A DNA stretch of 64,000 nucleotides, taken from NCBI GenBank assembly GCA_040219575.1, contig JAVJSD010000014.1, positions 66,120 through 130,119 of the forward strand, read 5' to 3'. Shown here in pieces: positions 40,756-64,000 of the stretch. The first letter of the stretch is position 1. Each line of letters opens with the position of its first letter. Both the position numbers and the translations under genes were made by a program. The stretch comes from Pirellulaceae bacterium (GTDB taxonomy: Bacteria > Planctomycetota > Planctomycetia > Pirellulales > Pirellulaceae). The notes beneath the pieces were generated by a model. The model was not told the origin of the DNA, ran no database searches, and worked only from the letters and a program-made list of their open reading frames with translations.

Positions 40756-40922
40756 CGTCTGCCTTCCTCGTGCTTGAGTAAATGTTCGACGATCTTCGAC
40801 AATGAAAGTGGATAAGAATACCCGTCGAGCTGCGAGATATGGTAGTGCGGCGGTTGCACATGGCCCTGAATCGTAATTGTAGCCAGTCACCGAATGAATC
40901 GTGAACGACAGGAACATGCGGA

Positions 40923-43360: not shown

Positions 43361-43511
43361 TGCGGCGGCCCGCGCGTCGAGGGTGCCTATCTCAGTGGGC
43401 GCGCGTTGGCCGAAGCGGTCTGTAATTTGGCCTGATTTACAGAATGAGACGCAAAAACTGGCCCGATCCGGCGACTTCGCTCGCCCGACATCTGGCCTAC
43501 AAAAAAGTGCC

Positions 43512-43943
43512 GTGAATCGCATCCTGATCGACACAAACGCATTTGTCGCCGCGGCTTACAACCCTGAGTCGGCAAGCCGGAAGATCGTGCGGGCTGTAGA
43601 GCGCGGCGAACTCAAGTTGATCGTCAGCCCGGAAATCGTCCGGGAGTACAAGGCGATCCTGCCCAAGGCCGTTCGTTCCGGCGAAGCGCGGGACTGGCTT
43701 TGGCAGGTCATCGAGATGGCGGAGCGTGTCACGCTGGCGGAGAATCCGCCCGTGACCGAGGATCGCGCCGACGACAAGTTCCTGGCTGCGGCGGTGGCCG
43801 GCGTAGCCGATGCAATTGTCAGCAGCGACCAGCACCTGCTGGACGTTCATCCCTACGCGGGAATTGACATCCTGCGCCCGACGGAGTTCTGGGACCGGTT
43901 CTCCACCGACAGTGATGAATCAGGACCGTCCGGCCCGGTGTGA
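43512..43943 (+). CDS. PIN-domain protein (VapC-like), no obvious cognate antitoxin
   Basis: ILIDTNAF N-terminal PIN motif and later acidic residues. GTG start. Confidence 0.6.
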   Translation: MNRILIDTNAFVAAAYNPESASRKIVRAVERGELKLIVSPEIVREYKAILPKAVRSGEARDWLWQVIEMAERVTLAENPPVTEDRADDKFLAAAVAGVADAIVSSDQHLLDVHPYAGIDILRPTEFWDRFSTDSDESGPSGPV

Positions 43944-50423: not shown

Positions 50424-51147
50424 GCTTCACCTCCTCGATGCGTCGCACATCCCGCTTACCTTCCATCGCCGGACGAACCATGCCCAACAACGCCGCTGCG
50501 CCACGGTCTACATCGGCCTCGAACAGCACCTTCAGCAGGCCCAGTCCGATCGCTTCCGGCTTGTTCACCGGCAGGCCCGCCACACTCTCGCTGAGCACGC
50601 GGATACCTCGGGCCTCTGCCGCAAACACGGGCGAGAACTGGTGGAACGGCGTCTCGACGCCCATCCGCCGCACCGCCCGCACCACTTCGGCAAAGCGCCC
50701 GGCCGGCGCGTTCTCGTAGCCGTCTGTAAGCACGAACACCACGTCGGGCTCGCGCTTCAGCAGCGCCACGAGACCGGCAGCCAGCGACGTGTCGCCGGCC
50801 GGCTCGATCAACTCGGCCGCCGGAGCCGCACGTCCGTCGTTCGTCACGATCGTCACCCGCTCGGCCGTCTCGGCCAGCAGGTCACGCAAGGCCAGAGCGA
50901 CCGAGATCGGTCGCCGCGCCTGCGTTTCGTGCCCGAACATCGACGCCGAAACGTCCAGCAGGATGCCGGCGTGCTCGAAACGCACCAGCAGCCTCTGAGC
51001 CGTCGCCTGCGCCTTGCGCAGCAGCTCGTGGATCTGGTCGCGATTCCTTGACGCGCTGGTGAACGGCAAGTTTCGGACCTGCCTCGATGATTGCAGGAAA
51101 CGAGCCGGCGTCCGGCCGGTCATAGCGGTCTTGATTGGGCCGTGCAC
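50410..51147 (-). CDS. von Willebrand factor type A (vWA) domain protein
   Basis: MIDAS D-x-S-x-S (LLDVSASMFG), followed by Thr and Asp-Gly blocks (VFVLTDGYEN). Confidence 0.65.
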   Translation of the reverse strand: MHGPIKTAMTGRTPARFLQSSRQVRNLPFTSASRNRDQIHELLRKAQATAQRLLVRFEHAGILLDVSASMFGHETQARRPISVALALRDLLAETAERVTIVTNDGRAAPAAELIEPAGDTSLAAGLVALLKREPDVVFVLTDGYENAPAGRFAEVVRAVRRMGVETPFHQFSPVFAAEARGIRVLSESVAGLPVNKPEAIGLGLLKVLFEADVDRGAAALLGMVRPAMEGKRDVRRIEEVKHGVS

Positions 51148-51710
51148 GCCGACTGGTGCTGGGTACCGAGTCGAGAGCAGCCACCGTGTCTATTACCATT
51201 ACGCGGCCGGAGGACTTTCGCATCTGGCGACCGAAGGCCCGGATCGAATTATGTCCGGCGCCGAGGAGATCACCACATTGCCTGACTGGACGCAGACCGG
51301 CAGAGGAGCGGCCGCTTTTCCACACCTGGGCCTGCGAAACTGAAGCGCACAAGATCTGGATCGAGCACTGCGAGGCCGCCGAAGGGATCGAGGACGAGTT
51401 CGAGGCCCTCGAATTCCTCCTTGGCGAGTTCTGGACCTACCTCGAAGCAGCGGAGGCCGACAGCCGATTTCGCGACGAGGTCCCAGCGTTCGCCGCTGAA
51501 ATCAAATCGATGTTCAACGCTTGGCGATTAACCAATTTTCTCGACGGGGCAGGTCCTGCTGCGCCCATCGACACGATCAGCTTTGATGACGATGAGTCCG
51601 ATCCCGAGGAAGTCGAGGAGATCGTTCGGGAAGACGAAATTCAAGTTGCCCGCGATCTACGGCTAGTTGAGCGGGCAAGGGAATGGCTGCTGGAAGAGAG
51701 CGATCGATGA
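51135..51710 (+). CDS. hypothetical acidic protein (same frame as the downstream Toprim ORF, separated by one TGA)
   Basis: ORF only. Acidic, helical-looking. No motif recognised. Confidence 0.3.
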   Translation: MGRARRLVLGTESRAATVSITITRPEDFRIWRPKARIELCPAPRRSPHCLTGRRPAEERPLFHTWACETEAHKIWIEHCEAAEGIEDEFEALEFLLGEFWTYLEAAEADSRFRDEVPAFAAEIKSMFNAWRLTNFLDGAGPAAPIDTISFDDDESDPEEVEEIVREDEIQVARDLRLVERAREWLLEESDR

Positions 51711-51722
51711 TTCTTCGCCTAT

Positions 51723-52142
51723 TTGGGGCGTTGGCCGGGTGACGACTACGACGCGAAGAAGGGCCGCCCACGTTACCGGTGGCCTGACGGCTTCAGCAAA
51801 AGCCAAATCGTTTACGGCCTGTCGTTCGCGTTGGAGACGCCAGCGGATCGACCGCTGATCGTCGTGGAGAGCCCCTTTTCCGTCTTCCACCTCCACCAAG
51901 TTGGGCTGCCCAACACCGTCTCCATTTTTGGTTCGTCGCTCAGCGACGAACAGGCGGACATCCTCATTTGCACAGATCGACCGCTGATCCTGATGTTCGA
52001 CGGCGACGAAGCCGGCTTCAAGGGCATGCGCACCGCCGCGGCCAAGCTGATCCGCCACGCGTATGTGTGCGTGAATGAACTGCCCGAGGGCCGTCAGCCC
52101 GATGAGCTTGAACGTAGCGAAATCGCCGATTTGCTTCGGTGA
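51723..52142 (+). CDS. Toprim-domain protein, DnaG-primase-like C-terminal fragment (possible remnant)
   Basis: DnaG-like blocks RYRWPDGFSKSQIVYGL, Toprim Glu in LIVVESPF, and DxD in LMFDGDEAG. It lacks the zinc-binding and RNA-polymerase N-terminal parts. Confidence 0.5.
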   Translation: MGRWPGDDYDAKKGRPRYRWPDGFSKSQIVYGLSFALETPADRPLIVVESPFSVFHLHQVGLPNTVSIFGSSLSDEQADILICTDRPLILMFDGDEAGFKGMRTAAAKLIRHAYVCVNELPEGRQPDELERSEIADLLR

Positions 52143-52346
52143 TATCTCGCAGCAGCAAGACACCGACCGGTTTCCGCTCGGTGTCCTTTTCTATCCGAAG
52201 CCATGCGAGGCGACGCGTCGTTCAAATATCTAGTGAACGGGTGTCACCGTGGACAGCATCTGTCCAACCAACACCTTATCATTGGGCATTGCTTTCGTTT
52301 CACCTGTGTTTGTGAACACTCATCCATTCATCCTCTCCGGCGACCG

Positions 52347-53396
52347 ATGGAACCTAGCTCTCCGCTCCTCCGCCAATGGATGCTGCTCAAGCTACTCGCG
52401 GCGACGACGCAGGGACGCGCCGTCCGGGAGCTGGCTGACGAAATGAGTGTCAGCGAGAAAACCATCCGCCGCGATCTCGCCGTGCTGACCGACGCCGGGT
52501 TCCCCATCGAAGACAAAACCGGCGAGTTCGGCCGCAAGGCCTGGCGTATCGCCCCATCGTGGAGTCCGTCCCAGATGGCATTCACCTTTGACGAAGCTCT
52601 CGCGCTCTACCTCGGCCGCCAGTTTCTCGAACCGCTCGCCGGCACGTTGTTCTGGCAGTCCGCCCAGCGGGCGATGAACAAAATCCGTGCCACGCTGACG
52701 CCCTCCGCCCTCCGCTATGTTGATCGGGCCGCCGAGGTCCTCTACCACACGGCCTTCGGCGCCAGCGATTACTCCCGCAAGGCCGATTTGATCGACGCAC
52801 TAATGGTCGCCATCGAAGACCGCCATGCTGTGTTCCTGACCTACCGCTCGCAACGCGCCACGGAACCCGTCACCTACGACGCTTACCCCTACGGGCTCAC
52901 CTACCATCGAGGTTCCCTGTATCTGGTAGGCCGGGCGCCGCAACACGACGAAATCCGACACTGGAAGGTCGATCGCATCGAAGTGGTCGAGCCGGCCGAA
53001 CTGCAATTCTCTCGGCCGTCTGGTTTTAATCTCCGCCGCCATTTCGCCGACTCGTTCGGCATTTGGGACGGCCGCGGTCGCATCGCCGTCAGAATCCGCT
53101 TCTCGGCAGACGTTGCCCGCTACGTCGAGGAATCCACCTGGCACGCGAGCCAAAAGCTGCAACGTCAACACGACGGCACGCTGATCGCCACCTTTCGGCT
53201 CTCCGCCATCGAAGAGATCAAGTCCTGGATCCTCAGCTTCGGACGCCACGCCGACGTGCTTGGGCCGCCAGAGCTGCGTGAGGAGATTGCGACGGAATTG
53301 CAGACGCTACTGATGAGATACACCTCGACACTGGAACCGCAACTCGACGAACCAACCGACCATATAAGTCGAAGGCACCGGCCATCGAAACGCTGA
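52347..53396 (+). CDS. HTH + WYL-domain transcriptional regulator
   Basis: N-terminal HTH (LRQWMLLKLLAATTQGRAVRELADEMSVSEKTIRRDLAVL) and a WYL-like core (VTYDAYPYGLTYHRGSLYLVGRAPQHDEIRHWKVDRI). It lies immediately upstream of cas6. Confidence 0.75.
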   Translation: MEPSSPLLRQWMLLKLLAATTQGRAVRELADEMSVSEKTIRRDLAVLTDAGFPIEDKTGEFGRKAWRIAPSWSPSQMAFTFDEALALYLGRQFLEPLAGTLFWQSAQRAMNKIRATLTPSALRYVDRAAEVLYHTAFGASDYSRKADLIDALMVAIEDRHAVFLTYRSQRATEPVTYDAYPYGLTYHRGSLYLVGRAPQHDEIRHWKVDRIEVVEPAELQFSRPSGFNLRRHFADSFGIWDGRGRIAVRIRFSADVARYVEESTWHASQKLQRQHDGTLIATFRLSAIEEIKSWILSFGRHADVLGPPELREEIATELQTLLMRYTSTLEPQLDEPTDHISRRHRPSKR

Positions 53397-53529: not shown

Positions 53530-54156
53530 ATGCACATCGATCTTTCGTTTCGTCTCATTGGTCAGAGTACGATTCCCTCCGATCACGGCTACCACCTCTA
53601 CGCCGCGGTCTCTCGGGTTTCGTCGCAGGCGCACGAGCCGAACGGTATCGGCGTCCATCCGATACGCGGTCGACAAATCGGCGATCGGCAGATCCAGCTC
53701 ACCGATTTCAGCCGCCTGACCATCCGCACCGAAGCCGACCACATTTCTCGCTGGCTTCCGCTTGCCGGCAAGCAACTGAACGTCGGCGGCCGCCCAATTC
53801 GCGTGGGTGTACCGGAAGTCCGCAGTCTCACGCCAACCGTCGCGCTCCGCAGCCGGCTCGTCACTATCAAGGTCTCTTCTGTCCGTGGCGAGTCACCTGC
53901 CCCACCCGACGCAGAGAGTTTCCGCGCTGCCGCTCTCCGTCAACTCGCCTCGCTTGGTATTTCCGACGCGGCCTCGCTTACGCTTGGCAAGCGCCGCACG
54001 CTGCGCATCAAGGACAAAGAAGTAGTCGGATACGAAGTACTCGTCTCCGAACTCACCGTCGAAGATTCGCTGGTCCTTCAAGAGCGCGGCCTCGGCGGTC
54101 GCCGCCATATGGGCTGCGGGATCTTTGTACCGGTCAACAAGCGAGAGGAGGCGTGA
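53530..54156 (+). CDS. cas6: CRISPR endoribonuclease Cas6
   Basis: Glycine-rich C-terminal loop GLGGRRHMGCGIF and Cas6-like size. First gene of the cas operon. Confidence 0.8.
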   Translation: MHIDLSFRLIGQSTIPSDHGYHLYAAVSRVSSQAHEPNGIGVHPIRGRQIGDRQIQLTDFSRLTIRTEADHISRWLPLAGKQLNVGGRPIRVGVPEVRSLTPTVALRSRLVTIKVSSVRGESPAPPDAESFRAAALRQLASLGISDAASLTLGKRRTLRIKDKEVVGYEVLVSELTVEDSLVLQERGLGGRRHMGCGIFVPVNKREEA

Positions 54157-56489
54157 TGGACGTCAATCGATTGTGGGCGAAGAGCAAGCCGTACGGATGG
54201 GACGACGACGACCCACGAGTCGAGTCGCTCTACCTTCCGCAGCATCTACGCGACGTTCACGACGCCGCCAGCCAAATCCTCGAAACGACGGGAGATTCAC
54301 AGCTTCAATCGCTCGGCCTGGCCCCGAGACTTTGGCGAGACCGATTCCGACGCGTATTGCTTCTCGCCGCGGCCGTTCACGATCTCGGCAAATGTGGAAG
54401 TCACTTTCAACTTATGCTGAAGGGTCAAGGGCGCCAAGCATTGCGGCACGAGTGGGTCAGTTTATTGATTCTGGACACTCCAGGTTGGACGAGTTGGCTC
54501 GTCTCCGCCGTGGATGGTGAAGCGATCGACTTAGAGATTGTCCGTTGGGCCGTAGCGGGCCATCATCCCAGATACGATCGAACAGCCCCGCCGACATCAA
54601 ACGACGGGCCTGCCACGCTTCATCTACCACTGGATCACCAAGATATCTCCGAAACGCTCAAATGGCTGGGTAGTACGTTCTCCCTTCACGGGACGCCTTC
54701 GCAGGAACCACGCACCGTTTCCCTGACGTTTGATCCCGGCAACGCCATCGATGCGCTCGCTGATCGACACTACGCTGCTGAAGACTTGTTTGACGACTTT
54801 TCGTCCGAAATGCGTCGATTTGTCGCTGCCGTCAAGAATAGCCTTGTCTCCGCCGACATCGCGGGCTCAGCGTTGCCGCGGCTAGCGGATGCTCAAGCGA
54901 AGCGGCACTGGCTCCGTGACGTACTCAACCAGGAAGGTCTGCCGACGTCCAACGACTACCGACGAATTACGGCCATGCGACTCGGCCGCTGCGAGCCAGC
55001 GGCAGTCGAAGGGAAACTCCGTCGATTTCAGAAAGAAGTAGGCGCGTCGCCGGCCCGAGTGACCTTCGTTCGGGCTGGTTGCGGAACCGGAAAGACTATC
55101 GCTGCGTATTGGTGGGCAGCCAACGTCTGCGCTGGCCGGCGATTGTTCGTCTGCTATCCGACCACAGGCACGGCGACCGCCGGCTTCGCCGACTATCTGA
55201 TGGATCCGGAACTTTCCCAAGCGGTGAAGACCGACCTGATTCACGGTCGCCGTATAGTTGACTTTCGCATGCTGCAGGCAGACGAGGATCGCAATGAGTC
55301 TGTGTCGCGCATCGCATCACTCGACATGTGGCGGACGCCGGTCGTCTCCAGCACCGTCGATACGGTGCTCGGTCTCATCCAAAATAACCGTCGCGGCCTG
55401 TGCAATTGGCCCGCCATCGCACAAGCAGGATTCGTCTTTGACGAAATCCACAGCTACGACGACAAGCTGTTCGACGCCCTGCTTCACTTTCTCGCGACCA
55501 TTCGTGGTGCGCCGATCTTGCTGATGACCGCCAGCCTACAGGTTCGTCGACTGGAGGCGATTCGATCGGTGCTTGCGGCGGCCGACGACCCACTTGCCGA
55601 GATTCCCGGGCCAGAGACGCTGGAAAGAGTTCCGCGGTATCAGCAGCGCCGCGACGTCAAAGCCAAGGACACGAAGCAAATCGACGCGATGATCCATGAG
55701 GAGGTCTCGCAGGGTGGAAAAGCTTTGTACGTTTGCAACACGGTGACCGATGCATTGCGAACAGCAGATCGGCTTGCGAAGTTGAAGCCCTTTGTCTACC
55801 ACAGTCGCTTTCGCTATCGCGATCGCGTTGAACGACACAAGAGCGTTGTCGAGGCGTTTCGACGCAAAAGCAAGTCTTCCGCCTTGGCGATTTGCACCCA
55901 AGTAGCGGAGATGTCCCTTGACCTCTCCGCGACACTCCTCGTGACCGCATTGGCGCCTGTGCCGTCGTTGATTCAGCGGCTTGGGCGCTTGAATCGTATC
56001 GAAAGGCCGGTGGAGCCACGACCATTCGTCATCGTCGAACCCCTCGGCGCCGATGGCAAGTACTCTCCACTTCCATACGAAGAAGGCGACTTGAAATCGA
56101 GCAAGAGTTGGCTTGAGGCAATCGGTGATGAACCTTGTTCTCAGCGCGACTTGGCCGACGCATGGGAGCGCCTCGCGGAAGGCGATTCGCCGTGTGCTCC
56201 GCCGCGTTGGCAGAGCGCATGGCTAGACTATGGGCCAGCTACTCCCGTCCTCGAACTTCGTGACGGATCACCCACACTTACGGTCATTCTCGAGGAAGAC
56301 TGGCCCCGGCTCTGCTCCCCCGACAATGCGACCGCATTGGCCGAGGTCGCCCTGCCCATGCCCATCCGCCCCGGCGACGACTGGCAGCTAAGAGATCGTG
56401 AAGACCGGCCACTGGAGTTCGCCGGAGTACCGGTCGCCAAGGCGGACAAGATCGACTATGACCCTCAACGAGGTGCGCAATGGCTGTAG
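54153..56489 (+). CDS. cas3: Cas3 (HD nuclease fused to DExH helicase)
   Basis: N-terminal HD motif (AAAVHDLGK), Walker A (GCGTGKT), DEIH box (FVFDEIH), and a helicase C-terminal domain. Confidence 0.9.
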   Translation: MMDVNRLWAKSKPYGWDDDDPRVESLYLPQHLRDVHDAASQILETTGDSQLQSLGLAPRLWRDRFRRVLLLAAAVHDLGKCGSHFQLMLKGQGRQALRHEWVSLLILDTPGWTSWLVSAVDGEAIDLEIVRWAVAGHHPRYDRTAPPTSNDGPATLHLPLDHQDISETLKWLGSTFSLHGTPSQEPRTVSLTFDPGNAIDALADRHYAAEDLFDDFSSEMRRFVAAVKNSLVSADIAGSALPRLADAQAKRHWLRDVLNQEGLPTSNDYRRITAMRLGRCEPAAVEGKLRRFQKEVGASPARVTFVRAGCGTGKTIAAYWWAANVCAGRRLFVCYPTTGTATAGFADYLMDPELSQAVKTDLIHGRRIVDFRMLQADEDRNESVSRIASLDMWRTPVVSSTVDTVLGLIQNNRRGLCNWPAIAQAGFVFDEIHSYDDKLFDALLHFLATIRGAPILLMTASLQVRRLEAIRSVLAAADDPLAEIPGPETLERVPRYQQRRDVKAKDTKQIDAMIHEEVSQGGKALYVCNTVTDALRTADRLAKLKPFVYHSRFRYRDRVERHKSVVEAFRRKSKSSALAICTQVAEMSLDLSATLLVTALAPVPSLIQRLGRLNRIERPVEPRPFVIVEPLGADGKYSPLPYEEGDLKSSKSWLEAIGDEPCSQRDLADAWERLAEGDSPCAPPRWQSAWLDYGPATPVLELRDGSPTLTVILEEDWPRLCSPDNATALAEVALPMPIRPGDDWQLRDREDRPLEFAGVPVAKADKIDYDPQRGAQWL

Positions 56490-58177
56490 CAAGGTCGATA
56501 AAGTGCAGCGAGGCTTTGGCGCCGGCGGATATGTCGTTTGAGTTGTTCGCTCCTGGCATGACCCCACTCCACCGCGCCGGACTCGGCGGGCTGGCAGCAA
56601 CTCTACTGGCGATGACTCGTCGGCGGAAACTGGGTCTGATTTCCCAAGACGATCTGCCAGGTGACTGGTCCAGCGGCGAGCCCTGGACGATTAAGCCGGA
56701 TCGCTTAGTTCTCCATTTCCGGGAACCAGAAGGAGCGGCGGACTACTTGCGCAAGTTGTTCGCTTTCGCATTCTCCATAAAGGACAAACTGATCGACTTG
56801 CCCGGTATCTACCGCGATGAATTGAACCGAGCCGTGCGCGCGGAGTTGCAACTCGGCCTGACATTGACGTTTCTTCAATTTGGTCCACATCGGAAGTTAG
56901 AGCCAGAAACGAAACTCACTTTCGATGTCACCGGCGATGGGACTGCCGAGATCGCCGTCGGCATCCGCGCCTGTCATGGATATCTCCATCAGGATGCTGT
57001 CGAACGACTCAAACTCTTCGACAAGAAGGGCCGCTTGAACTGGAAAGCCACCGAGACTCCCAGCGCCTTCAATCCGGGCGCCGTCGTGCGACACAACGCG
57101 TTTGGAACAAGTACGCGTATTGAAGAATTGCCACCCGCAGGAATCGCGGCCTGCTTTGCCATCGTAGGAGCACTTTCACTGGCGGTTAACCGAGGCGTGG
57201 GGGTGCTGTTGATCCCAGAAGTTGACGACTTAGAGAGGTTCGCTCGATCTCGACCGCGTATGACTCCTACAACTCTGCGCGAGTGTCGCATTAGTGCGGC
57301 GAGCGACGCCGCAATGCAGGCAGAAGTTCGCTTGCGGGCAAGAGGACAGATGCAGCGGCATGGACTCACGGGGATCTACACCATGCAGCTACGCCCTACG
57401 CAGTGGAACGAAAAGCAGAAGACTCGCGTTGCTACGCTGCACATTCCTTGCTGCACAGATCCAACGCTGGAGCGATTCAATTTGGCGTTGAGGCACCTGC
57501 CGCCACGCATCTACTCGTATGCGGAGCCCGTTACCGGAGGACGAGGGCGAAGGAGCGACACCCCGCAGTTTGTCTGGCGCTGGAAAGACAGTCTTGTTCG
57601 TCCGCTCGTCGCCGACAATCTTGCGACTGGCCGCAGATGGTACGACGGGTTCGCGGACTTGATGACAGGGCAAGATGGTTCTCACGTCCCAATCCATCAA
57701 CGGATTTCATTCGAAGCGGAGGGTTTGTACGCGATGCTCAGTGAGAAACAAGGCGGCATGACCGAAGAGGAAGAACGAAACTTGATTGGAGCGATCCATC
57801 GAGCTGTCTACATGCAGCGAGGCAAGATCTACGCTGACACGATGGGAAAACGGCCTGAGGCCGGCGGGGCAAAACCGAGCCAAGCCTGCTTTAACCGTTG
57901 GTCGCGATTGATGGAGCGACTGCGGCTGGGGTTGATCAACTCCAAGACCGCGGAACAGACGCGTCGCCTTCTCCAGGACGACATCTTTGGCCGGGCCGGC
58001 ACGATTCCGGAGCTCAAAGACCACGAAAAACTCCGCCAAGTCCATCGACTGATATTTCACGATGACTGGCGAAGGCTACGAGACCTCACCATGCTCGCTG
58101 TGGTCAGCTATAAAGCGCCTGCGGACAGGGCCCCCATCCCCGGCGAAGACGATACGGAAATCGAGAACGATTCCTGA
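56480..58177 (+). CDS. cas8: Cas8 large subunit (type I-B / MYXAN-like Cas8)
   Basis: 565 aa between cas3 and cas7. N-terminal MTPLHRAGLGGL block. Assigned by position and size. Confidence 0.65.
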   Translation: MAVARSIKCSEALAPADMSFELFAPGMTPLHRAGLGGLAATLLAMTRRRKLGLISQDDLPGDWSSGEPWTIKPDRLVLHFREPEGAADYLRKLFAFAFSIKDKLIDLPGIYRDELNRAVRAELQLGLTLTFLQFGPHRKLEPETKLTFDVTGDGTAEIAVGIRACHGYLHQDAVERLKLFDKKGRLNWKATETPSAFNPGAVVRHNAFGTSTRIEELPPAGIAACFAIVGALSLAVNRGVGVLLIPEVDDLERFARSRPRMTPTTLRECRISAASDAAMQAEVRLRARGQMQRHGLTGIYTMQLRPTQWNEKQKTRVATLHIPCCTDPTLERFNLALRHLPPRIYSYAEPVTGGRGRRSDTPQFVWRWKDSLVRPLVADNLATGRRWYDGFADLMTGQDGSHVPIHQRISFEAEGLYAMLSEKQGGMTEEEERNLIGAIHRAVYMQRGKIYADTMGKRPEAGGAKPSQACFNRWSRLMERLRLGLINSKTAEQTRRLLQDDIFGRAGTIPELKDHEKLRQVHRLIFHDDWRRLRDLTMLAVVSYKAPADRAPIPGEDDTEIENDS

Positions 58178-58210
58178 ACATACCTTAACATACAGCAAGA
58201 GATCGATACC

Positions 58211-59131
58211 ATGACTCTACATGTCTTTGCGAGTATCGCGACAGGCTACGGAACGGCGGGCAACAATCGCGGCGAAACCGAGGGCAATACAACGACGCTG
58301 CAAAAGTTGATCTGGCATGGTCAGCCGCATACGACCGTTAGCGCCGAGGCGATCCGCTTCGCATTGCGGCGGCTTCTAACATGCAAAGAACAAGCTGGCA
58401 CGAATCGAACCTGGAACGAAGCGACTCGCAGGAACGACTGGCAGGACGCCGAATTCAAAAAGTGGCGCAAAGAGGAAGCCGGCTTCATCGACGACGATCT
58501 ACTTGGATTCATGTCCGCCGAAGCCGCGAAAGACGAAAACACAAAGGGATCCGCCAACGTACGGCGTGCCGTGCTGGAAATGACGCGCGCCGTCTCTCTT
58601 ACACCTTGGCCGGGCGACGTTGTCTTCAACGCTGCCTCGCCGCGCGCAACCGCCTCTGCCGCGAAAGGCGAGGGCGACAATCCTGTGCCTTATATGGCCG
58701 AGGTCCACGCCACTCGCTACCAGTATGGACTTGCGATGACACCGACTGCACTTCGCGACCGCTCTCGGGCAGCGAAGGGACTTGAGGCAGTTGCTTCATT
58801 GGGGACTGTCGCGGGCAATCACGCCAGATTCCTGTTCGACTTCGCGCCTGAAGCCATCGTCATTCGATTAACGGAGGATCCCGCTCCTCGCTTACTTTAT
58901 TGCTTCGATACGGCGGATGGCGGAAAGACCATCGGGGCAGAGACGCTTGTCAAGAGAATTCAGTCTGAGGACATCAATCCAGACGAACTGATTCTTGGCG
59001 TGGTCGACCTCGACGCCTCTCTCGCGGATCAGCTCAAGACGGCGGGCGTGAACCAGATCCACGGCGTTCGACGCGCAGTAGAACTGGCATGCAAGCGAAT
59101 CAACGAGCACTCAGACGTGAAAGGCGGCTGA
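58211..59131 (+). CDS. cas7: Cas7 backbone subunit
   Basis: Cas7-type N-terminus (GYGTAGNNRGE...), AIRFALRR block, 306 aa. Confidence 0.8.
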   Translation: MTLHVFASIATGYGTAGNNRGETEGNTTTLQKLIWHGQPHTTVSAEAIRFALRRLLTCKEQAGTNRTWNEATRRNDWQDAEFKKWRKEEAGFIDDDLLGFMSAEAAKDENTKGSANVRRAVLEMTRAVSLTPWPGDVVFNAASPRATASAAKGEGDNPVPYMAEVHATRYQYGLAMTPTALRDRSRAAKGLEAVASLGTVAGNHARFLFDFAPEAIVIRLTEDPAPRLLYCFDTADGGKTIGAETLVKRIQSEDINPDELILGVVDLDASLADQLKTAGVNQIHGVRRAVELACKRINEHSDVKGG

Positions 59132-59132
59132 T

Positions 59133-59798
59133 ATGATCGGCGTCTATGTCACGGTTCCGATCGCCTGTTTTCGCAAAGGCCTCGCGCGCGAGTTTTTGGA
59201 GACAGAAATCCTTCCTCCACCAGCGACTTGTTATGGCTTCCTGCTCTCGCTTGTCGGAGAAGCCGATCGTCGGCGGCACGTCGCCTGTCGGATCGCGCCT
59301 GCCGTGATTAGGCGTGAACTGCGCGTGAGCACAGTCCTCCGAACCGTCTGGCGGCTGAAACACCGCGATCGCGATCCTGGCGCATCGGGCAACATGCGTC
59401 CAGACTTCCAGCAACTACTCACCGGACTCGAATTGGTCATATGGCTGGATTCAAACGAAGAGATAAGTAGCGGCCCAGCGCTCGAGGAACGAGTTCGTCA
59501 CGCTCTGGCTTTCCCTTCCTCTATCACTCGATACGGAGGCTTGAGTCTCGGTGAGAGCACCCACCTCATCGACGAGGTCTCCGTCATCAACGACAGCTTC
59601 CGACTAGAACGAGATGAACCGTCGTGTCAAATGTTCCTCACTTCCCAACGTGGGCCGCTAACGCTGCCAGTCTGGGTCGACCACGTGGGGTCAGCGGGCA
59701 CACGATATGCAACAGGAGAAATCGAGGTTGTCCCTGCCTTCACCTCCCCCGCGGCAAGCCGCATGTCGCAGATCGACAGAGCGTCTCAGTCGGAATAA
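59133..59798 (+). CDS. cas5: Cas5
   Basis: Cas5 hallmark N-terminus VPIACFRKGLAREFLETEILPPPATCYGFLLSLVG. Starts 2 nt after cas7. Confidence 0.75.
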   Translation: MIGVYVTVPIACFRKGLAREFLETEILPPPATCYGFLLSLVGEADRRRHVACRIAPAVIRRELRVSTVLRTVWRLKHRDRDPGASGNMRPDFQQLLTGLELVIWLDSNEEISSGPALEERVRHALAFPSSITRYGGLSLGESTHLIDEVSVINDSFRLERDEPSCQMFLTSQRGPLTLPVWVDHVGSAGTRYATGEIEVVPAFTSPAASRMSQIDRASQSE

Positions 59799-59813
59799 CG
59801 CAAGGAATGGAAA

Positions 59814-61532
59814 GTGCGTGCTCGAATTCCGCCCCACTCTGATTTGACAGCCGAACACACTCCTAATAGCAACGACGCCAGCCCCGCCGAGCCGCCGGTG
59901 CGCGTGATGGCACTACACGCCCTCCTTTACTGCGAGCGGCTCTTTTACCTTGAAGAGGTCGAGGAGATCCGCGTGGCCGACGGGGCGGTGTATGCGGGTC
60001 GCCGACTGCACGACAACGTGGTTCCCCTCGAGGACGAAACTCCCGAGTATCGATCCATAGAACTGGGCAGCGACGACTGGGGCATTTTGGGCAAGGCCGA
60101 CGCCGTGCGCAGGCGCGATGGAAAGTGGGTCGCGTACGAACACAAACGCGGCCGCTGTCGGCGCGATGAAAACAATCGCCCCGCCGCCTGGCTGAGCGAC
60201 CGCATGCAGGCAATCGCCTACGCGGTTCTGATAGAGGAGGCGCTTGGCGAGCCCGTGCTACAATCGCGGGTCCGCTATCACGCCGACAACGTCACTGCGT
60301 TCGTCGATATCAACGATCAGGCTCGCCAGGATCTGCGCAGCGCCGTCGAACGAGCCCGGTCGTTGCGGCGCACCACGCAGCGCCCGCCTGTTGCCGAGAA
60401 CGAAAACCTCTGCCGCCGCTGTTCGCTGGCGCCGGTCTGCCTGCCGGAGGAGGAACGATTGGCGGCGGCGGTCAAAGCAGAGACCCCACCGCCTGCGCGA
60501 CTGTTTCCTTCGGATCGGCGCAAGCAATCGCTGCATCTACTATCGCCCCGCACTCGGCTTGGGCGCAGCGGCAAGACGCTGGTGGTGACCACCGACGAGG
60601 GCAAGGAAAAAGTTCCCGTCAACGACATTGACTCCGTTGTTGTGCATGGTTTCGCCCAGGTGACCACCCAAGCGATTCATCTCTGCGCCAGCCACGACGT
60701 TTCTATCGCGTGGCTCACGGGCGGCGGCAGGTTTGCAGCGGGTACGGCGGCCTCAGCCGGCCGAGTTCAGCAGCGACTGCGACAGTATCACGCACTGGCC
60801 GACGACGCGTTCCGGCTTAAACTGGCACGGCAGCTTGTCCACGCAAAGGTTGAGACGCAACTGCGATACTTGTTGCGGGCAACTCGAGGCAACCAGGCCG
60901 CCCGTGAAGCTTCCCGGCCAGAGATCGAGCAGATTCGAGAGGCGATAAAACGCATTGTGAAGGCGACTTCAATCCCGACTTTGCTCGGATTGGAAGGAAT
61001 CGCCGCCAAGGCGTATTTCGCCTGCGTGCCGCGACTGCTCGGCGACCAGGCCGACGACAAGTTGCGGCCGTCTGGCCGGTCGAAACATCCGCCTGGTGAC
61101 CGCTTTAACGCGGCGCTCAGCTTTGGTTACGCCCTTGTGCAGTCACTCGTTATGCGCAGCGCGCTGGCCGTCGGCCTGGAGCCGGCGTTCGGCTTCTACC
61201 ACCAGCCGCGCACGGCAGCCCATCCTCTCGTGCTGGACGTGATGGAGTTGTATCGCACGCCACTCTGGGAGATGCCCTTGATAGGCAGCATCAATCGCGG
61301 GCAATGGCAGCCCGACGAGGATTTTTCGGTGACGCGCCAGCAGGTCTGGCTTTCGGAGTCGGGCCGTAAGAAGGCTTTGCAATTGTTCGAGCAGCGCTTG
61401 CAGGAATCGTACCGGCACCCGTACACCGGGCAGTCGCTGACCTACGCCCGGCTGGTCGAGCTGGAGGTGCGGTTGCTGGAAAAGGAGTGGACCGGCTGTC
61501 CAGGAGTCTTCGCCCAGATGCGATTGAGGTGA
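59814..61532 (+). CDS. cas4-cas1: Cas4-Cas1 fusion protein
   Basis: N-terminal Cas4 (ALHALLYCERLFYLEEV, and the C-terminal Fe-S cysteine cluster CRRCSLAPVC), followed by a Cas1 integrase domain. Confidence 0.85.
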   Translation: MRARIPPHSDLTAEHTPNSNDASPAEPPVRVMALHALLYCERLFYLEEVEEIRVADGAVYAGRRLHDNVVPLEDETPEYRSIELGSDDWGILGKADAVRRRDGKWVAYEHKRGRCRRDENNRPAAWLSDRMQAIAYAVLIEEALGEPVLQSRVRYHADNVTAFVDINDQARQDLRSAVERARSLRRTTQRPPVAENENLCRRCSLAPVCLPEEERLAAAVKAETPPPARLFPSDRRKQSLHLLSPRTRLGRSGKTLVVTTDEGKEKVPVNDIDSVVVHGFAQVTTQAIHLCASHDVSIAWLTGGGRFAAGTAASAGRVQQRLRQYHALADDAFRLKLARQLVHAKVETQLRYLLRATRGNQAAREASRPEIEQIREAIKRIVKATSIPTLLGLEGIAAKAYFACVPRLLGDQADDKLRPSGRSKHPPGDRFNAALSFGYALVQSLVMRSALAVGLEPAFGFYHQPRTAAHPLVLDVMELYRTPLWEMPLIGSINRGQWQPDEDFSVTRQQVWLSESGRKKALQLFEQRLQESYRHPYTGQSLTYARLVELEVRLLEKEWTGCPGVFAQMRLR

Positions 61533-61535
61533 ACG

Positions 61536-61832
61536 ATGGCGGCCAAGCAATGGCACCTGATTACGTACGATGTGCGTGACCCCAAGCGACTGCGGCGGGT
61601 TGCCAAGCTGCTTGAATCGTACGGCACACGGGTGCAATACAGCGTGTTTCGCTGCCGCCTGGACGCCCTGGCGCTGGAAAAGTTGACTTGGGAGTTGAAC
61701 CAACTGATGGATGAGGTCGACGACTTGTTGGTGATTCCCCTCTGTCGCCAATGCGCGGGCAAAGTGCCGACGCATTCGACGGGCGACCAATCACACTGGG
61801 TGGACGCTCCACCGGCGTTTCGGATTGTGTAG
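61536..61832 (+). CDS. cas2: Cas2
   Basis: MAAKQWHLITYDVRDPKRLRRVAKLLESYGTRVQYSVF is typical of Cas2. Confidence 0.85.
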   Translation: MAAKQWHLITYDVRDPKRLRRVAKLLESYGTRVQYSVFRCRLDALALEKLTWELNQLMDEVDDLLVIPLCRQCAGKVPTHSTGDQSHWVDAPPAFRIV

Positions 61833-62187
61833 CGTTCAGCTTCGTTGGGCCATCCAACGCATCGCAGCGAGTGTGCAAGCTCAGGCGGCAGGTCTTGCAG
61901 CGTCATGAGATCACAAATCATGCATCTCCCCGTGGTGGAGAACTATGGCGCGTATTCTGGGCGAACGCTTTGCCCCTCCGCAATTTGCATTTATATCGAG
62001 AATCAATCGAGCGTGAGCGTCATTGGCGGAAACGCAGACTTCCTTCAGGCTATAGCTTTGCGTCGTCGCTTCGCCTTCACAGCCATCGCCGACCACTGTT
62101 CGCCAGCACGAAACTTCGTCGGCTTTGCTCAATGCCTGAATTTGCCTTGCGCAAACCCAGTCAGTATAACGACTTGCACTTGGTGCC

Positions 62188-64000
62188 GTGTCCGCTTCGT
62201 TGATGCCGAAAGGCGTTGAGCACATGCCGCGTGCCGTTGATGCGGCTTGGCGTTGCAGGTGTGTCCGCTTCGTTGATGCCGAAAGGCGTTGAGCACTTGA
62301 GCACGGCCCGCGAGACCACGCAGCTGATGCGTGTCCGCTTCGTTGATGCCGAAAGGCGTTGAGCACGAAGACAAATGCCCTGAGCGGTTCCACGCGAGCC
62401 CGGTGTCCGCTTCGTTGATGCCGAAAGGCGTTGAGCACACGCCGCCCAAACGACCGACAAGAACGCGAAACACTGGTGTCCGCTTCGTTGATGCCGAAAG
62501 GCGTTGAGCACTTGAGCATCGGGCGATTTCAGGAAAACGGCAGCAGCAGTGTCCGCTTCGTTGATGCCGAAAGGCGTTGAGCACTACCAACCGCTCATCC
62601 CGAACGCGGCGCAGCAGACGTGTCCGCTTCGTTGATGCCGAAAGGCGTTGAGCACTGCTTCGAGCTATTCATCGTCGCGGCGTTGATCGAGGTGTCCGCT
62701 TCGTTGATGCCGAAAGGCGTTGAGCACTCCCCCATGGCAGCGTTGTATCGGCGGAGGAATTGTGTCCGCTTCGTTGATGCCGAAAGGCGTTGAGCACTCG
62801 TACCGCCGCATCAGTTCATGGGCGAGTGCTTCGTGTGTCCGCTTCGTTGATGCCGAAAGGCGTTGAGCACTTGAACCACAAGCTGCTGCTAGCCGTGTTC
62901 GCCGATGTGTCCGCTTCGTTGATGCCGAAAGGCGTTGAGCACTAGTGGGCGGTCTCGATCTTCGCCGGCGAGACCAAGTGTCCGCTTCGTTGATGCCGAA
63001 AGGCGTTGAGCACCTGGGGATGCCTACCGCCGCTGCCCGCGATGGTGTGTCCGCTTCGTTGATGCCGAAAGGCGTTGAGCACTTCAAAGCCGGATCGCCG
63101 AAAGCAACGAGCAATTGTGTCCGCTTCGTTGATGCCGAAAGGCGTTGAGCACTTTCTGACCGTTCGCTCGATCGACAAGGGGCTCGCTGTGTCCGCTTCG
63201 TTGATGCCGAAAGGCGTTGAGCACAGGCACGACGCGCCGCCGAATTTGGATTGCGCCGTAGTGTCCGCTTCGTTGATGCCGAAAGGCGTTGAGCACCGAC
63301 CGGGGAGGCATCCACACTGCAAGACCGTTTCGGTGTCCGCTTCGTTGATGCCGAAAGGCGTTGAGCACCTGCACCTACGAAAAAAGGGCCGACGCGAATA
63401 CGCGCCGTGTCCGCTTCGTTGATGCCGAAAGGCGTTGAGCACCTTTGATAGGTGCTGGTCATGTCGGGTTGCGGTAAGTGTCCGCTTCGTTGATGCCGAA
63501 CGGCGTTGAGCACCAGTCATTACCGACCCAGTATGGCCGAACGCCCCGGTGTCCGCTTCGTTGATGCCGAAAGGCGTTGAGCACTCGGGAACCGTGACCT
63601 TGTAGTCCTGTGATGCCGTGTGTCCGCTTCGTTGATGCCGAAAGGCGTTGAGCACCCTTCGTTGCAAGCGTTGCCTGCGGATCGCTCGGTTGTGTCCGCT
63701 TCGTTGATGCCGAAAGGCGTTGAGCACAAGAATATCCGGACACGTTCGACGTCGAAGCGATCGCGTGTCCGCTTCGTTGATGCCGAAAGGCGTTGAGCAC
63801 GAACGCTTCCCGTTTGGCCCCCCGGCGCATCCCAGTGTCCGCTTCGTTGATGCCGAAAGGCGTTGAGCACATTCAATTACTCCCTGGGGGTCGCTTGGTT
63901 GGTTCGTGTCCGCTTCGTTGATGCCGAAAGGCGTTGAGCACTTTGACCAGAAAGAGCGCGAGCTGCTCAAGCGGCTCGCGTGTCCGCTTCGTTGATGCCG
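62188..64000 (+). CRISPR. CRISPR array, 36-bp repeat GTGTCCGCTTCGTTGATGCCGAAAGGCGTTGAGCAC, at least 26 repeats (last truncated by the window), 35-37-bp spacers
   Basis: Repeats and spacers counted directly in the sequence, period ~71.6 bp. About 350 bp of AT-richer leader lies between cas2 and the first repeat. One variant repeat at 63478 (AAAGG to AACGG). Transcription direction is inferred from leader position only. Confidence 0.95.

What the first reader, a model, noticed from the sequence alone, without database searches (positions are those of the whole stretch)
53530..64000. Type I CRISPR-Cas with cas6-cas3-cas8-cas7-cas5-cas4/cas1-cas2 order (I-B / former I-MYXAN-like), Cas4-Cas1 fusion
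All interference and adaptation genes are present and tightly packed (overlaps of 4-10 nt). Cas3 is a fused HD-helicase placed second. Cas6 and Cas5 are separate genes, so this is not the canonical I-G Cas5-Cas6 fusion. Cas4 is fused to Cas1, as in the Myxococcus Dev-type I-B variants and I-G. The repeat is 36 bp with a GCCGAAAGGC mini-hairpin. Subtype assignment by eye is tentative.
Basis: partly seen in the sequence, partly recalled or inferred. Interest (0 to 1): 0.55.

Follow-up and report, generated by a model that had tools for sequence, protein, structure and literature searches.

The report
Ordinary type I-B (MYXAN) CRISPR-Cas locus

Summary
Seven co-directional genes (cas6, cas3, cas8, cas7, cas5, cas4-cas1 fusion, cas2; 53530-61832, + strand) are followed by a 355-nt leader. 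The CRISPR array after it has 25 full 36-nt repeats and a 26th cut by the window end.

Profile typing gives type I-MYXAN (a I-B variant). Cas6/Cmx6, Cas8a1/Cmx1, Cas5/Cmx5/DevS, Cas7/DevR and Cas1_MYXAN all score above the curated cut-offs. The I-G and I-C models stay below theirs. NCBI already names this exact Cas8 'type I-MYXAN Cas8a1/Cmx1 [Pirellulaceae bacterium]'.

In 74 related loci, mostly Planctomycetota, the gene order, the Cas4-Cas1 fusion (49/53) and the repeat (3' GGCGTTGAGCAC invariant) are the family norm. The literature describes the same layout as 'MxI-B'.

Additions:
- A WYL regulator lies just upstream.
- A hidden Cas11 is probably translated from a conserved internal SD+ATG in cas8 (M419). 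This Met aligns with the first residue of the separate Cas11 chain in PDB 8FCJ.
- Spacer 1 is repeat-like, and spacers 2 and 5 begin with the 8-nt repeat tail. This is unexplained.

No protospacers were found, so the PAM is taken from the literature. Novelty: already known. Interest: low.

The parts
52203..53396 (+). HTH-WYL-WCX transcription regulator, probable regulator of the cas operon (ORF from 52203; the gene call on the identical Logan contig starts at 52347, giving 349 aa)
   Evidence: Pfam WCX 72.6 bits, WYL 65.5 bits, HTH_11 35.3 bits. PADLOC CRISPR-associated WYL models 126 and 120 bits. A co-directional homologue lies within 2.5 kb upstream in 21 of 53 related loci. The regulatory role is inferred, not shown.
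53530..54156 (+). cas6 (Cmx6), the crRNA-processing endoribonuclease
   Evidence: TIGR02807 172 bits against a cut-off of 98.85. Pfam Cas6 200 bits. Best solved relative is 8FCJ chain B, 'Type I-B Cas6', E 5.7e-30.
54153..56489 (+). cas3, a fused HD nuclease and superfamily-2 helicase (alternative ATG start at 54156)
   Evidence: TIGR01587 146 bits and TIGR01596 52 bits, both above cut-off. PADLOC Cas3b 670 bits, end to end. The motifs HD (AAAVHDLGK), Walker A (GCGTGKT), DEIH and QRLGRLNR are intact.
56480..58177 (+). cas8 (Cas8a1/Cmx1/DevT family), the Cascade large subunit
   Evidence: TIGR03485 153.9 bits and TIGR03486 72.2 bits, both above cut-off. 100% identical to an NCBI protein named 'type I-MYXAN CRISPR-associated Cas8a1/Cmx1 [Pirellulaceae bacterium]'. 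Precomputed Pfam families are DevT_N and DevT_C.
57734..58177 (+). Probable internal cas11 (small subunit, 147 aa), read in frame from M419 of cas8; the GGAGGG Shine-Dalgarno-like sequence ends 9 nt upstream of the ATG
   Evidence: The Met is conserved in 67 of 68 homologues. An SD core lies at -18 to -5 in 65 of 67, against 13.9% at other in-frame codon positions of the same genes. Arg codons there are 90% AGG/AGA/CGA, against 31% gene-wide. M419 aligns with M397 of 8FCJ Cas8, which is the first residue of the separately modelled 138-aa Cas11 chain. Internal Cas11 translation is established for I-B, I-C and I-D (bioRxiv 10.1101/2020.04.18.045682; PMC11899642). It is inferred here.
58211..59131 (+). 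cas7 (Cst2/DevR), the Cascade backbone subunit
   Evidence: TIGR02585 135.3 bits against a cut-off of 72.75. Solved relatives: 8FCJ chain C, E 1.9e-29, and 8H67 chain E, E 5.8e-25.
59133..59798 (+). cas5 (Cmx5/DevS), which binds the crRNA 5' handle
   Evidence: TIGR02586 172.9 bits against a cut-off of 111.5. PADLOC Cas5b 219.9 bits.
59814..61532 (+). cas4-cas1 fusion, combining the PAM-selecting nuclease and the integrase (likely start ATG 59907)
   Evidence: TIGR03983 Cas1_MYXAN 473.8 bits against a cut-off of 358, covering residues 227-572; TIGR00372 Cas4 74.5 bits, covering residues 30-211. PADLOC fused Cas1b model 753.6 bits over all 533 positions. Aligns end to end with the G. sulfurreducens Cas4/Cas1 structure 7MI4, E 1.5e-60. 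The four Fe-S cysteines, the D/E/K nuclease motif and the Cas1 E/H/E residues are present.
61536..61832 (+). cas2
   Evidence: TIGR01573 58.6 bits against a cut-off of 24.5. PADLOC Cas2b 111 bits.
61833..62187 (+). CRISPR leader (355 nt)
   Evidence: In 39 related loci the distance from the cas2 tblastn match to the first repeat is 245-584 nt. Motifs recur at fixed distances from repeat 1: cTTGAAA near -52, TAAC near -34 and CTTGC near -14. The window has CTGAAT, CAAAC and CTTGC at those positions.
62188..64000 (+). CRISPR array: 25 full 36-nt repeats plus a 26th cut by the window end, and 25 unique spacers of 33-38 nt
   Evidence: The repeat family is shared by 43 related loci, with the 3' 12 nt GGCGTTGAGCAC invariant and the tetraloop variable. 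The terminal motif -TTGAGCAC and the 36-bp length are those published for MxI-B repeats (PMC11237760, read).

Best explanation
This is a complete type I-B CRISPR-Cas adaptive immune system of the MYXAN variant (also written I-MYXAN or 'MxI-B'). It lies in a defence island of a Pirellulaceae (Planctomycetota) genome.

Inferred mechanism, by homology to characterised relatives:
1. The array is transcribed from the leader.
2. Cas6 binds the GCC-GAAA-GGC hairpin and cuts at its 3' base. This leaves crRNAs with the 8-nt 5' handle UUGAGCAC.
3. Cascade assembles from Cas8, Cas7, Cas5, Cas6 and Cas11. Cas11 is made from an internal start inside cas8.
4. Cascade recognises a 5' PAM, forms an R-loop and recruits the HD-helicase Cas3, which degrades the invader DNA.
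5. The Cas4-Cas1 fusion with Cas2 selects PAM-flanked prespacers, trims them and integrates them at the leader-repeat junction.
6. The upstream WYL protein probably controls transcription of the operon.

Shown here: gene content, family membership, intact catalytic motifs, repeat and leader conservation, and the conserved internal start site. Inferred: activity, PAM, Cascade stoichiometry and regulation.
For: Subtype-specific models for Cas6, Cas8 (both halves), Cas5, Cas7 and Cas1 pass their curated cut-offs. PADLOC's best hits are I-B profiles, including a full-length fused Cas4-Cas1 profile at 754 bits.

The identical Cas8 is already named type I-MYXAN by NCBI. The identical locus occurs on an independent Logan assembly.

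Figures from 74 related loci:
- Order cas6-cas3-cas8-cas7-cas5-cas4-cas1-cas2 in 54 of 64 loci.
- Continuous Cas4-Cas1 ORF in 49 of 53 loci.
- 36-nt repeats with an invariant GGCGTTGAGCAC 3' end in 43 arrays, all co-directional with the adjacent cas2.

Catalytic motifs of Cas3, Cas4 and Cas1 are intact. Twenty-four of 25 repeats are identical and all spacers are unique, which fits a live array.

The published description of MxI-B matches point by point: upstream Cas6, a Cas3-Cas8-Cas7-Cas5 effector module, Cas1 fused with Cas4, and a 36-bp repeat ending -TTGAGCAC (PMC11237760). Cas4-Cas1 fusions are known in I-B (PMC6547450).

For Cas11.
Against: No protospacer was found for any spacer, so neither the PAM nor current activity is demonstrated. 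This covers cultured phages and eight IMG/VR scans.

No convincing sigma-70 promoter was found in the leader or upstream of cas6; such scans are weak for Planctomycetota.

The repeat hairpin is only modestly more stable than shuffled controls (z -1.7). Its stem core is invariant, so covariation cannot support it.

The array is cut by the window end.
Confidence: 0.95

Rival explanations
1. It is a type I-G (former I-U) or I-C system that was misread by eye.
For: The Cas4-Cas1 fusion is shared with I-G. The fused protein aligns over its whole length with the I-G Cas4/Cas1 structure 7MI4 and scores 395 bits on the I-G fusion model.
Against: The I-G models are below their cut-offs (Cas4g/Cas1g 395.5 < 560; Cas3g 134 < 400), as is I-C Cas1c (216 < 385). 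The MYXAN Cas1 model passes (473.8 > 358). Cas5 and Cas6 are separate genes, each with its own MYXAN-specific hit. Cas8 is Cas8a1/Cmx1, not Csx17 or Cas8c. The repeat ends in TTGAGCAC, not the TTGAAGC (I-G) or TTGAAAC (I-C) tails reported in PMC11237760.
Confidence: 0.01
2. It is a nuclease-free Cascade co-opted by a Tn7-like transposon (a type I-B CAST). The closest solved Cascade (PDB 8FCJ to 8FF5) belongs, as I recall, to such an element.
For: Cas6, Cas7 and Cas8 have their best solved relatives in the 8FCJ set.
Against: A full-length Cas3 with intact HD and helicase motifs is present, together with a complete Cas4-Cas1/Cas2 adaptation module. The array holds 25 diverse spacers. No Tn7-family match (TnsA/B/C or TniQ) appeared among the ORFs profiled between 32.7 and 53.4 kb; the only transposase there is an IS-type DDE_Tnp_1_4. 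Sequence downstream of the array is not visible.
Confidence: 0.01
3. The locus is retained mainly for a non-immune, regulatory role, like the dev operon of Myxococcus xanthus, or it is no longer active in immunity.
For: Cas7 and Cas5 belong to the DevR and DevS families. No spacer target could be found. Three of the five leader-proximal spacers look CRISPR-derived rather than phage-derived.
Against: All catalytic motifs are intact. Repeats are near-identical and spacers are unique and of normal length. The leader motifs are conserved. The locus sits in a defence island. Missing protospacers are expected for an uncultured planctomycete whose viruses are poorly sampled.
Confidence: 0.04

Closest known systems
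Type I-MYXAN / 'MxI-B' CRISPR-Cas of Myxococcus xanthus (the dev-linked locus: Cas6, Cas3, DevT/Cas8a1, DevR/Cas7, DevS/Cas5, Cas4-Cas1, Cas2)
   Same: It has the same gene set, order and Cas4-Cas1 fusion. The subtype-specific protein families are the same. The repeat length (36 bp) and the terminal motif -TTGAGCAC are the same (PMC11237760).
   Different: The host is a planctomycete (Pirellulaceae), not a myxobacterium. PMC11237760 calls the subtype myxobacteria-specific, yet 74 relatives found here are mostly from Planctomycetota. No adjacent type III-B module was seen in the window, although the window ends inside the array. A WYL regulator lies upstream. No link to development is expected.
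Cascade of PDB 8FCJ/8FCU/8FD2/8FD3/8FF4/8FF5 (Cas8 deposited as 'Type I-MYXAN Cas8a1/Cmx1'; from memory this is the PmcCAST type I-B2 transposon-associated Cascade)
   Same: It is the best solved relative of Cas6 (E 5.7e-30), Cas7 (E 1.9e-29) and Cas8 (E 2.5e-10). Its separate Cas11 chain starts at the Met that aligns with M419 here. The chain counts in the PDB entries suggest Cas7 x6, Cas11 x3, Cas8 x1 and Cas6 x1.
   Different: The locus here keeps Cas3 and the adaptation module, so it is a defence system and not a transposon guide. Cas8 similarity is confined mainly to the C-terminal third.
Type I-G (I-U) Cas4/Cas1-Cas2 of Geobacter sulfurreducens (PDB 7MI4; PMC6547450)
   Same: It has the same fused Cas4-Cas1 architecture. 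The alignment is end to end, with conserved Fe-S cysteines, the RecB-like nuclease motif and Cas1 catalytic residues. A similar PAM-selecting, directional integration mechanism is likely.
   Different: The effector module differs: I-G has a Cas5-Cas6 fusion and Cas8u2/Csx17. The score on the I-G fusion model is below its cut-off (395.5 < 560).
Canonical type I-B systems (Haloferax, Thermotoga, Synechocystis 8H67) with Cas8b and internally translated Cas11b
   Same: The Cascade plan is the same: Cas6 processing, a Cas7/DevR-family backbone (8H67, E 5.8e-25), and Cas11 produced from within cas8 (PMC11899642, PMC13199841, bioRxiv 10.1101/2020.04.18.045682).
   Different: These systems have a different Cas8 family and unfused Cas4 and Cas1. 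The I-B Cas1 HMARI model scores 142.8 bits against a cut-off of 304. From my own knowledge, their repeat tails differ (ATTGAAAC/G type).

Membership tests
Type I CRISPR-Cas | Cas3 with an HD nuclease and a superfamily-2 helicase | tested here: met
   TIGR01587 146 bits and TIGR01596 52 bits are both above cut-off. The HD, Walker A, DEIH and motif VI sequences are intact.
Type I-B, MYXAN variant (I-MYXAN / MxI-B) | Signature large subunit Cas8a1/Cmx1 (DevT family) | tested here: met
   TIGR03485 153.9 bits (cut-off 80.85) and TIGR03486 72.2 bits (cut-off 47.4). NCBI's name for the identical protein is type I-MYXAN Cas8a1/Cmx1, and the precomputed Pfam families are DevT_N and DevT_C.
Type I-B, MYXAN variant (I-MYXAN / MxI-B) | Separate Cas6/Cmx6, Cas5/Cmx5/DevS and Cas7/DevR subunits | tested here: met
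   TIGR02807 172 bits (cut-off 98.85), TIGR02586 172.9 bits (cut-off 111.5) and TIGR02585 135.3 bits (cut-off 72.75).
Type I-B, MYXAN variant (I-MYXAN / MxI-B) | MYXAN-clade Cas1 fused to an N-terminal Cas4 domain | tested here: met
   TIGR03983 473.8 bits (cut-off 358) on residues 227-572, and the Cas4 model 74.5 bits (cut-off 65) on residues 30-211, in one ORF. The ORF is continuous in 49 of 53 related loci.
Type I-B, MYXAN variant (I-MYXAN / MxI-B) | Gene order cas6, cas3-cas8-cas7-cas5, cas4/1, cas2, with the array downstream | tested here: met
   The same order occurs in 54 of 64 related loci, and it is described in PMC11237760.
Type I-B, MYXAN variant (I-MYXAN / MxI-B) | 36-bp repeat with a small hairpin and the terminal motif -TTGAGCAC | tested here: met
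   GGCGTTGAGCAC is invariant in 43 related arrays. The motif is as published.
Type I-B, MYXAN variant (I-MYXAN / MxI-B) | 5' PAM of the ATG/TTG type, and DNA interference | not testable with these tools
   No protospacer was found. The PAM is taken from PMC11237760 for myxobacterial B-type arrays.
Type I-B (general) | Cas11 small subunit produced by internal translation of cas8 | tested here: inconclusive
   A conserved internal ATG with an SD supports it (67 of 68 and 65 of 67), as does alignment with the Cas11 chain start in 8FCJ. Translation itself cannot be shown in silico.
Type I-G (I-U) | Cas5-Cas6 fusion, Cas8u2/Csx17, Cas3g, Cas4g/Cas1g | tested here: not met
   Cas5 and Cas6 are separate genes. 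There is no Csx17 hit. Cas3g scores 134 bits (cut-off 400) and Cas4g/Cas1g 395.5 bits (cut-off 560).
Type I-C | No Cas6 (Cas5c processes the crRNA), Cas8c, Cas1c | tested here: not met
   Cas6 is present. There is no Cas8c hit. Cas1c scores 216 bits (cut-off 385).
Type I-B CRISPR-associated transposon (CAST) | Cascade without Cas3 or an adaptation module, embedded in a Tn7-like element with tnsABC and tniQ | tested here: not met
   Cas3, Cas4-Cas1 and Cas2 are present. No Tn7-family match appeared among the ORFs profiled between 32.7 and 53.4 kb. Sequence downstream of the array is not visible.

The most novel reading that the evidence does not exclude
Three of the five leader-proximal spacers look as if they were captured from CRISPR-array sequence rather than from a virus.
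- Spacer 1 is a diverged copy of the repeat (1 of 5000 shuffles scores as high).
- Spacer 2 begins with TTGAGCAC, an exact copy of the 8-nt repeat tail that is the predicted crRNA 5' handle.
- Spacer 5 begins with TTGAGCAT.

All three have normal spacer length, so they were measured by the acquisition machinery.

The same 'handle-first' spacer recurs rarely in unrelated arrays of this repeat family (L029, L079). About 0.02 exact cases would be expected by chance among roughly 1400 spacers; 2 were seen.

The most novel reading is that this system occasionally acquires spacers from CRISPR arrays or from crRNA-derived nucleic acid, in register with the Cas6 cleavage site. The source could be self-acquisition or a rival mobile element carrying a related array or repeat mimic.
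Probability: 0.1. Interest if true: 0.5.

Novelty: already known. Interest (0 to 1): 0.1.

Why it matters
It matters little as a discovery. The locus is a textbook member of a described subtype and is already annotated as such in NCBI.

Its modest value is confirmatory. It shows that the 'MYXAN' I-B variant is common in Planctomycetota rather than specific to myxobacteria. The Cas4-Cas1 fusion, the invariant 12-nt repeat 3' end and the leader motifs are family-wide. The family also carries a conserved hidden cas11 start inside cas8 and is often paired with a WYL regulator.

The handle-prefixed and repeat-like spacers are a small unexplained detail. They could say something about where this adaptation machinery sometimes finds its substrates.

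Tried and rejected
- **Spacer targets.** The whole array searched against 50,697 phage records gave only chance-level hits (E >= 0.5). Eight exact-match scans of IMG/VR found nothing: the 3' 26-29 nt of spacers 2 and 5 (the part after the tail copy) and the 5' 24 nt of spacers 3, 4, 6, 7, 8 and 10. No PAM could therefore be derived.
- **Exact repeat in JGI metagenomes.** No hits.
- **Self-targets in the window.** Only spacer 15 has a partial match, 28 of 36 at position 13030. The seed positions are mismatched, so it is not a target.
- **Rfam.** No family reached its gathering score anywhere in the window, including the CRISPR direct-repeat families.
- **Promoter, terminator and inverted-repeat scans** around the WYL gene, the cas6 upstream region and the leader gave nothing above chance.
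- **Rest of the array.** I tried to fetch it from the NCBI contig through the 548-aa Cas8, but that protein is not on record.
- **Source of spacers 1, 2 and 5.** I looked in the visible array and in the 74 related loci and found only chance 12-mers.
- **Mis-placed integration or deletion as the origin of handle-first spacers.** I rejected these because they predict abnormal repeat or spacer lengths, whereas the observed spacers are 34-37 nt (reasoning only).
- **I-G, I-C and CAST readings.** Rejected by profile scores and gene content.
- **Structure prediction.** Not run. Sequence-level matches to solved structures already answered the question.

Full report
**1. The observation**

The + strand between 53530 and 61832 carries seven co-directional ORFs of 208, 778, 565, 306, 221, 572 and 98 aa. 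Downstream, the 36-nt unit GTGTCCGCTTCGTTGATGCCGAAAGGCGTTGAGCAC occurs 25 times (24 exact copies and one with a single mismatch at 63478). None is expected in shuffled sequence. A 26th copy is cut by the window end. The 25 spacers are 33-38 nt long and share no 12-mers.

- cas6/cas3 overlap by 4 nt, or by 1 nt with the ATG at 54156.
- cas3/cas8 overlap by 10 nt, or lie 41 nt apart with the start used for NCBI's 548-aa protein.
- The other junctions are gaps of 33, 1, 15 and 3 nt.

**2. Identity**

Three profile libraries agree. NCBIfam gives subtype-specific matches above the curated cut-offs:

| Protein | Model | Bits | Cut-off |
|---|---|---|---|
| Cas6/Cmx6 | TIGR02807 | 172 | 98.85 |
| Cas8a1/Cmx1, N-terminal half | TIGR03485 | 153.9 | 80.85 |
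| Cas8a1, C-terminal half | TIGR03486 | 72.2 | 47.4 |
| Cas7/Cst2/DevR | TIGR02585 | 135.3 | 72.75 |
| Cas5/Cmx5/DevS | TIGR02586 | 172.9 | 111.5 |
| Cas1_MYXAN (residues 227-572 of the 572-aa ORF) | TIGR03983 | 473.8 | 358 |

The N-terminus of that 572-aa ORF matches Cas4 (74.5 bits against 65). Cas3 has both the HD and the helicase core, and Cas2 is standard.

PADLOC's best models are all of subtype 'b'. They include a 533-position fused Cas4-Cas1 profile matched end to end at 754 bits and a Cas3b profile at 670 bits. Pfam agrees.

The Cas8 is 100% identical to an NCBI protein already named 'type I-MYXAN CRISPR-associated Cas8a1/Cmx1 [Pirellulaceae bacterium]'. Its relatives carry the newer Pfam families DevT_N and DevT_C. 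The same locus is present on an independent Logan assembly.

**3. Integrity**

- Cas3 has the HD motif (AAAVHDLGK), Walker A (GCGTGKT), DEIH and QRLGRLNR.
- The Cas4-Cas1 fusion aligns over residues 26-561 with the Geobacter sulfurreducens Cas4/Cas1 structure 7MI4 (E 1.5e-60).
- It keeps the N-terminal Cys and the C-x2-C-x5-C cluster, the D...E-x-K nuclease motif, and the Cas1 residues in LEG, YHQPR and VMELYR.
- Nothing looks decayed.

**4. Comparison with relatives**

An alignment of Cas8 homologues retrieved 74 loci from the species-representative genome collection. Nearly all are from Planctomycetota, with a few assigned to other phyla. tblastn with the window's proteins gave the following:
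- The order cas6-cas3-cas8-cas7-cas5-cas4-cas1-cas2 occurs in 54 of 64 loci. Ten have cas3 before cas6.
- A continuous Cas4-Cas1 reading frame occurs in 49 of 53 loci.
- An array lies next to cas2 in the loci that reach that far.

Forty-three arrays have 36-nt repeats of one family. The 3' 12 nt GGCGTTGAGCAC and the GCC/GGC stem core are invariant, the tetraloop varies, and the 5' half is free. The repeat folds with that hairpin (-11.2 kcal/mol, z -1.7). Because the stem core never varies, covariation cannot be used for or against it.

Leaders are 245-584 nt long and share motifs at fixed distances from repeat 1. This supports the + orientation and leader-proximal integration.

**5. Literature**

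PMC11237760 describes 'MxI-B' as follows: signature Cas8a1/Cas8b3, Cas1 fused with Cas4, a Cas3-Cas8-Cas7-Cas5 effector module with Cas6 upstream, and 36-bp repeats ending -TTGAGCAC. It predicts the PAMs 5'-ATG and 5'-TTG for that repeat type. PMC6547450 lists I-B among the three subtypes with Cas4-Cas1 fusions. That paper calls the subtype myxobacteria-specific; the distribution seen here shows it is not.

**6.

(a) A 349-397-aa HTH-WYL-WCX protein lies 133 nt upstream of cas6 on the same strand. It matches PADLOC's CRISPR-associated WYL profiles (126 and 120 bits). A co-directional homologue is found within 2.5 kb upstream in 21 of 53 related loci. I infer that it regulates the operon.

(b) No cas11 gene is annotated, but Cas8 has only two near-invariant Met columns, M27 and M419. 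Four lines of evidence point to M419 as an internal start:
- The ATG of M419 (57734) is preceded by GGAGGG, which ends 9 nt upstream.
- An SD core occurs at -18 to -5 in 65 of 67 homologues, against 13.9% at other codon positions of the same genes.
- The Arg codons there are 90% AGG/AGA/CGA, against 31% gene-wide.
- In the 8FCJ set of solved structures, Cas8 is deposited as 'Type I-MYXAN Cas8a1/Cmx1' and Cas11 is a separate 138-aa chain. That chain starts at Cas8 M397, which aligns exactly with M419.

Internal translation of Cas11 is established for I-B, I-C and I-D (bioRxiv 10.1101/2020.04.18.045682; PMC11899642). A 147-aa Cas11 is therefore probably made here.

**7. Mechanism (inferred from homology)**

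1. Cas6 cuts at the 3' base of the hairpin and leaves the 8-nt UUGAGCAC handle.
2. Cascade assembles from Cas8, Cas11, Cas7, Cas5 and Cas6. The chain counts in 8FCJ suggest a 1:3:6:1:1 composition.
3. Cascade finds a PAM-flanked target and recruits Cas3.
4. Cas4-Cas1 and Cas2 acquire PAM-compatible spacers at the leader end.

**8. Context**

The cas genes have third-codon-position G+C content (GC3) of 0.61-0.73, against 0.8-0.9 for most genes in the first 34 kb of the window. They lie in a defence-island-like stretch containing:
- an IS-type DDE transposase;
- a PtuA/AriA-like AAA_15 ATPase;
- an REase-ARP nuclease and an ARPP-1 protein;
- a PIN protein;
- a 1545-aa STAND-like protein that matches the candidate system PDC-M54A;
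- a small Toprim ORF.

**9. An unexplained detail**

- Spacer 1 resembles the repeat: 22 of 27 aligned positions, and 1 of 5000 shuffles reaches its score.
- Spacer 2 begins with an exact copy of the 8-nt repeat tail.
- Spacer 5 begins with a 7-of-8 copy of that tail.
- All have normal length.
- Among about 1400 spacers of related arrays, one more exact case exists (L029), where 0.02 exact cases are expected by chance.
- A metagenome scan for tail-tail junctions found another in a bona fide array (L079) and one in a degenerate array (L078/L080).
- I could not find the sources.
- Acquisition from CRISPR-array sequence is the simplest reading, but why the register coincides with the predicted Cas6 cut site is open.

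**10. Verdict**

The system is a known, already annotated kind. Interest is low.

Noticed in passing
window 62224-62260, 62297-62330, 62512-62548; L029 about 16161-16195; L079 (array on the reverse strand; junction at 433-452): Spacer 1 is a diverged copy of the repeat (1 of 5000 shuffles scores as high). Spacer 2 starts with TTGAGCAC, an exact copy of the repeat's last 8 nt and the predicted crRNA handle. Spacer 5 starts with TTGAGCAT. All have normal spacer length. The same handle-first spacer occurs once in L029 and once in a metagenomic array (L079). About 0.02 exact cases are expected among roughly 1400 spacers. The source and mechanism are unknown.
   Followed up: partly
window 57734-58177 (+), inside cas8: There is a conserved internal ATG (M419) with a Shine-Dalgarno-like GGAGGG upstream. 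It is conserved across 67 of 68 homologues and aligns with the start of the separate Cas11 chain in PDB 8FCJ. This is probably an unannotated cas11 gene within cas8.
   Followed up: yes
window 52203-53396 (+): An HTH-WYL-WCX regulator lies directly upstream of cas6. It matches CRISPR-associated WYL profiles and is found co-directionally upstream in 21 of 53 related MYXAN-type loci.
   Followed up: partly
window 44535-49172 (-): A 1545-aa protein has a weak nSTAND NTPase hit and a match to the PADLOC candidate defence protein PDC-M54A (97 bits). Its GC3 is unusually low (0.54). It may be a STAND-type defence gene.
   Followed up: no
window 39391-41250 (-) and 49386-50423 (-): An REase-ARP nuclease (Pfam 'Restriction Endonuclease associating with ARP') and an ARPP-1 domain protein lie about 8 kb apart. 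Both families come from predicted conflict systems. The 245-aa ORF next to ARPP-1 (50410-51147, -) has no family hit.
   Followed up: no
window 51723-52142 (+) versus 51663-52163 (-): A 139-aa ORF carries a DnaG-type Toprim domain (TIGR01391, E 1.5e-17, and a hit to the DnaG-like part of DRT UG29). It overlaps a 166-aa ORF on the opposite strand that the Logan gene caller chose and that has no family hit. The caller's strand is probably wrong, or this is a primase fragment.
   Followed up: no
window 34576-36120 (+), 36553-37713 (-), 43227-43943 (+): An IS-type DDE_Tnp_1_4 transposase, a PtuA/AriA-like AAA_15/AAA_21 ATPase and a PIN-domain toxin-like protein lie upstream. Together with lower third-codon-position G+C content (GC3 0.54-0.75) from about 36 kb onward, they suggest that the CRISPR locus sits in a horizontally acquired defence island.
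   Followed up: partly
window 63225-63260 versus 13030-13065: Spacer 15 matches a chromosomal ORF (12799-14448, +) at 28 of 36 positions. This is more than any of 400 shuffles (maximum 26), but positions 1, 2 and 4 are mismatched. It is not a functional self-target; it may be chance or a distant homologue of the true target.
   Followed up: partly
window 62088-62187 and the leaders of 39 related loci: Leader motifs recur at fixed distances from the first repeat across the family: cTTGAAA near -52, TAAC near -34 and CTTGC near -14. They could be integration-host-factor, Cas1 or promoter elements.
   Followed up: partly
L002-L075: The MYXAN-type I-B system is abundant in Planctomycetota, with a few loci assigned to Omnitrophota, Verrucomicrobiota, Vicinamibacterales and others. 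This is at odds with the statement in PMC11237760 that the subtype is myxobacteria-specific.
   Followed up: partly
window 11687-11879: A 93-nt tandem repeat occurs in 2.1 copies at 77% identity. It is rich in CCA/CCG/CAG codons and probably encodes a Pro/Gln-rich repeat.
   Followed up: no
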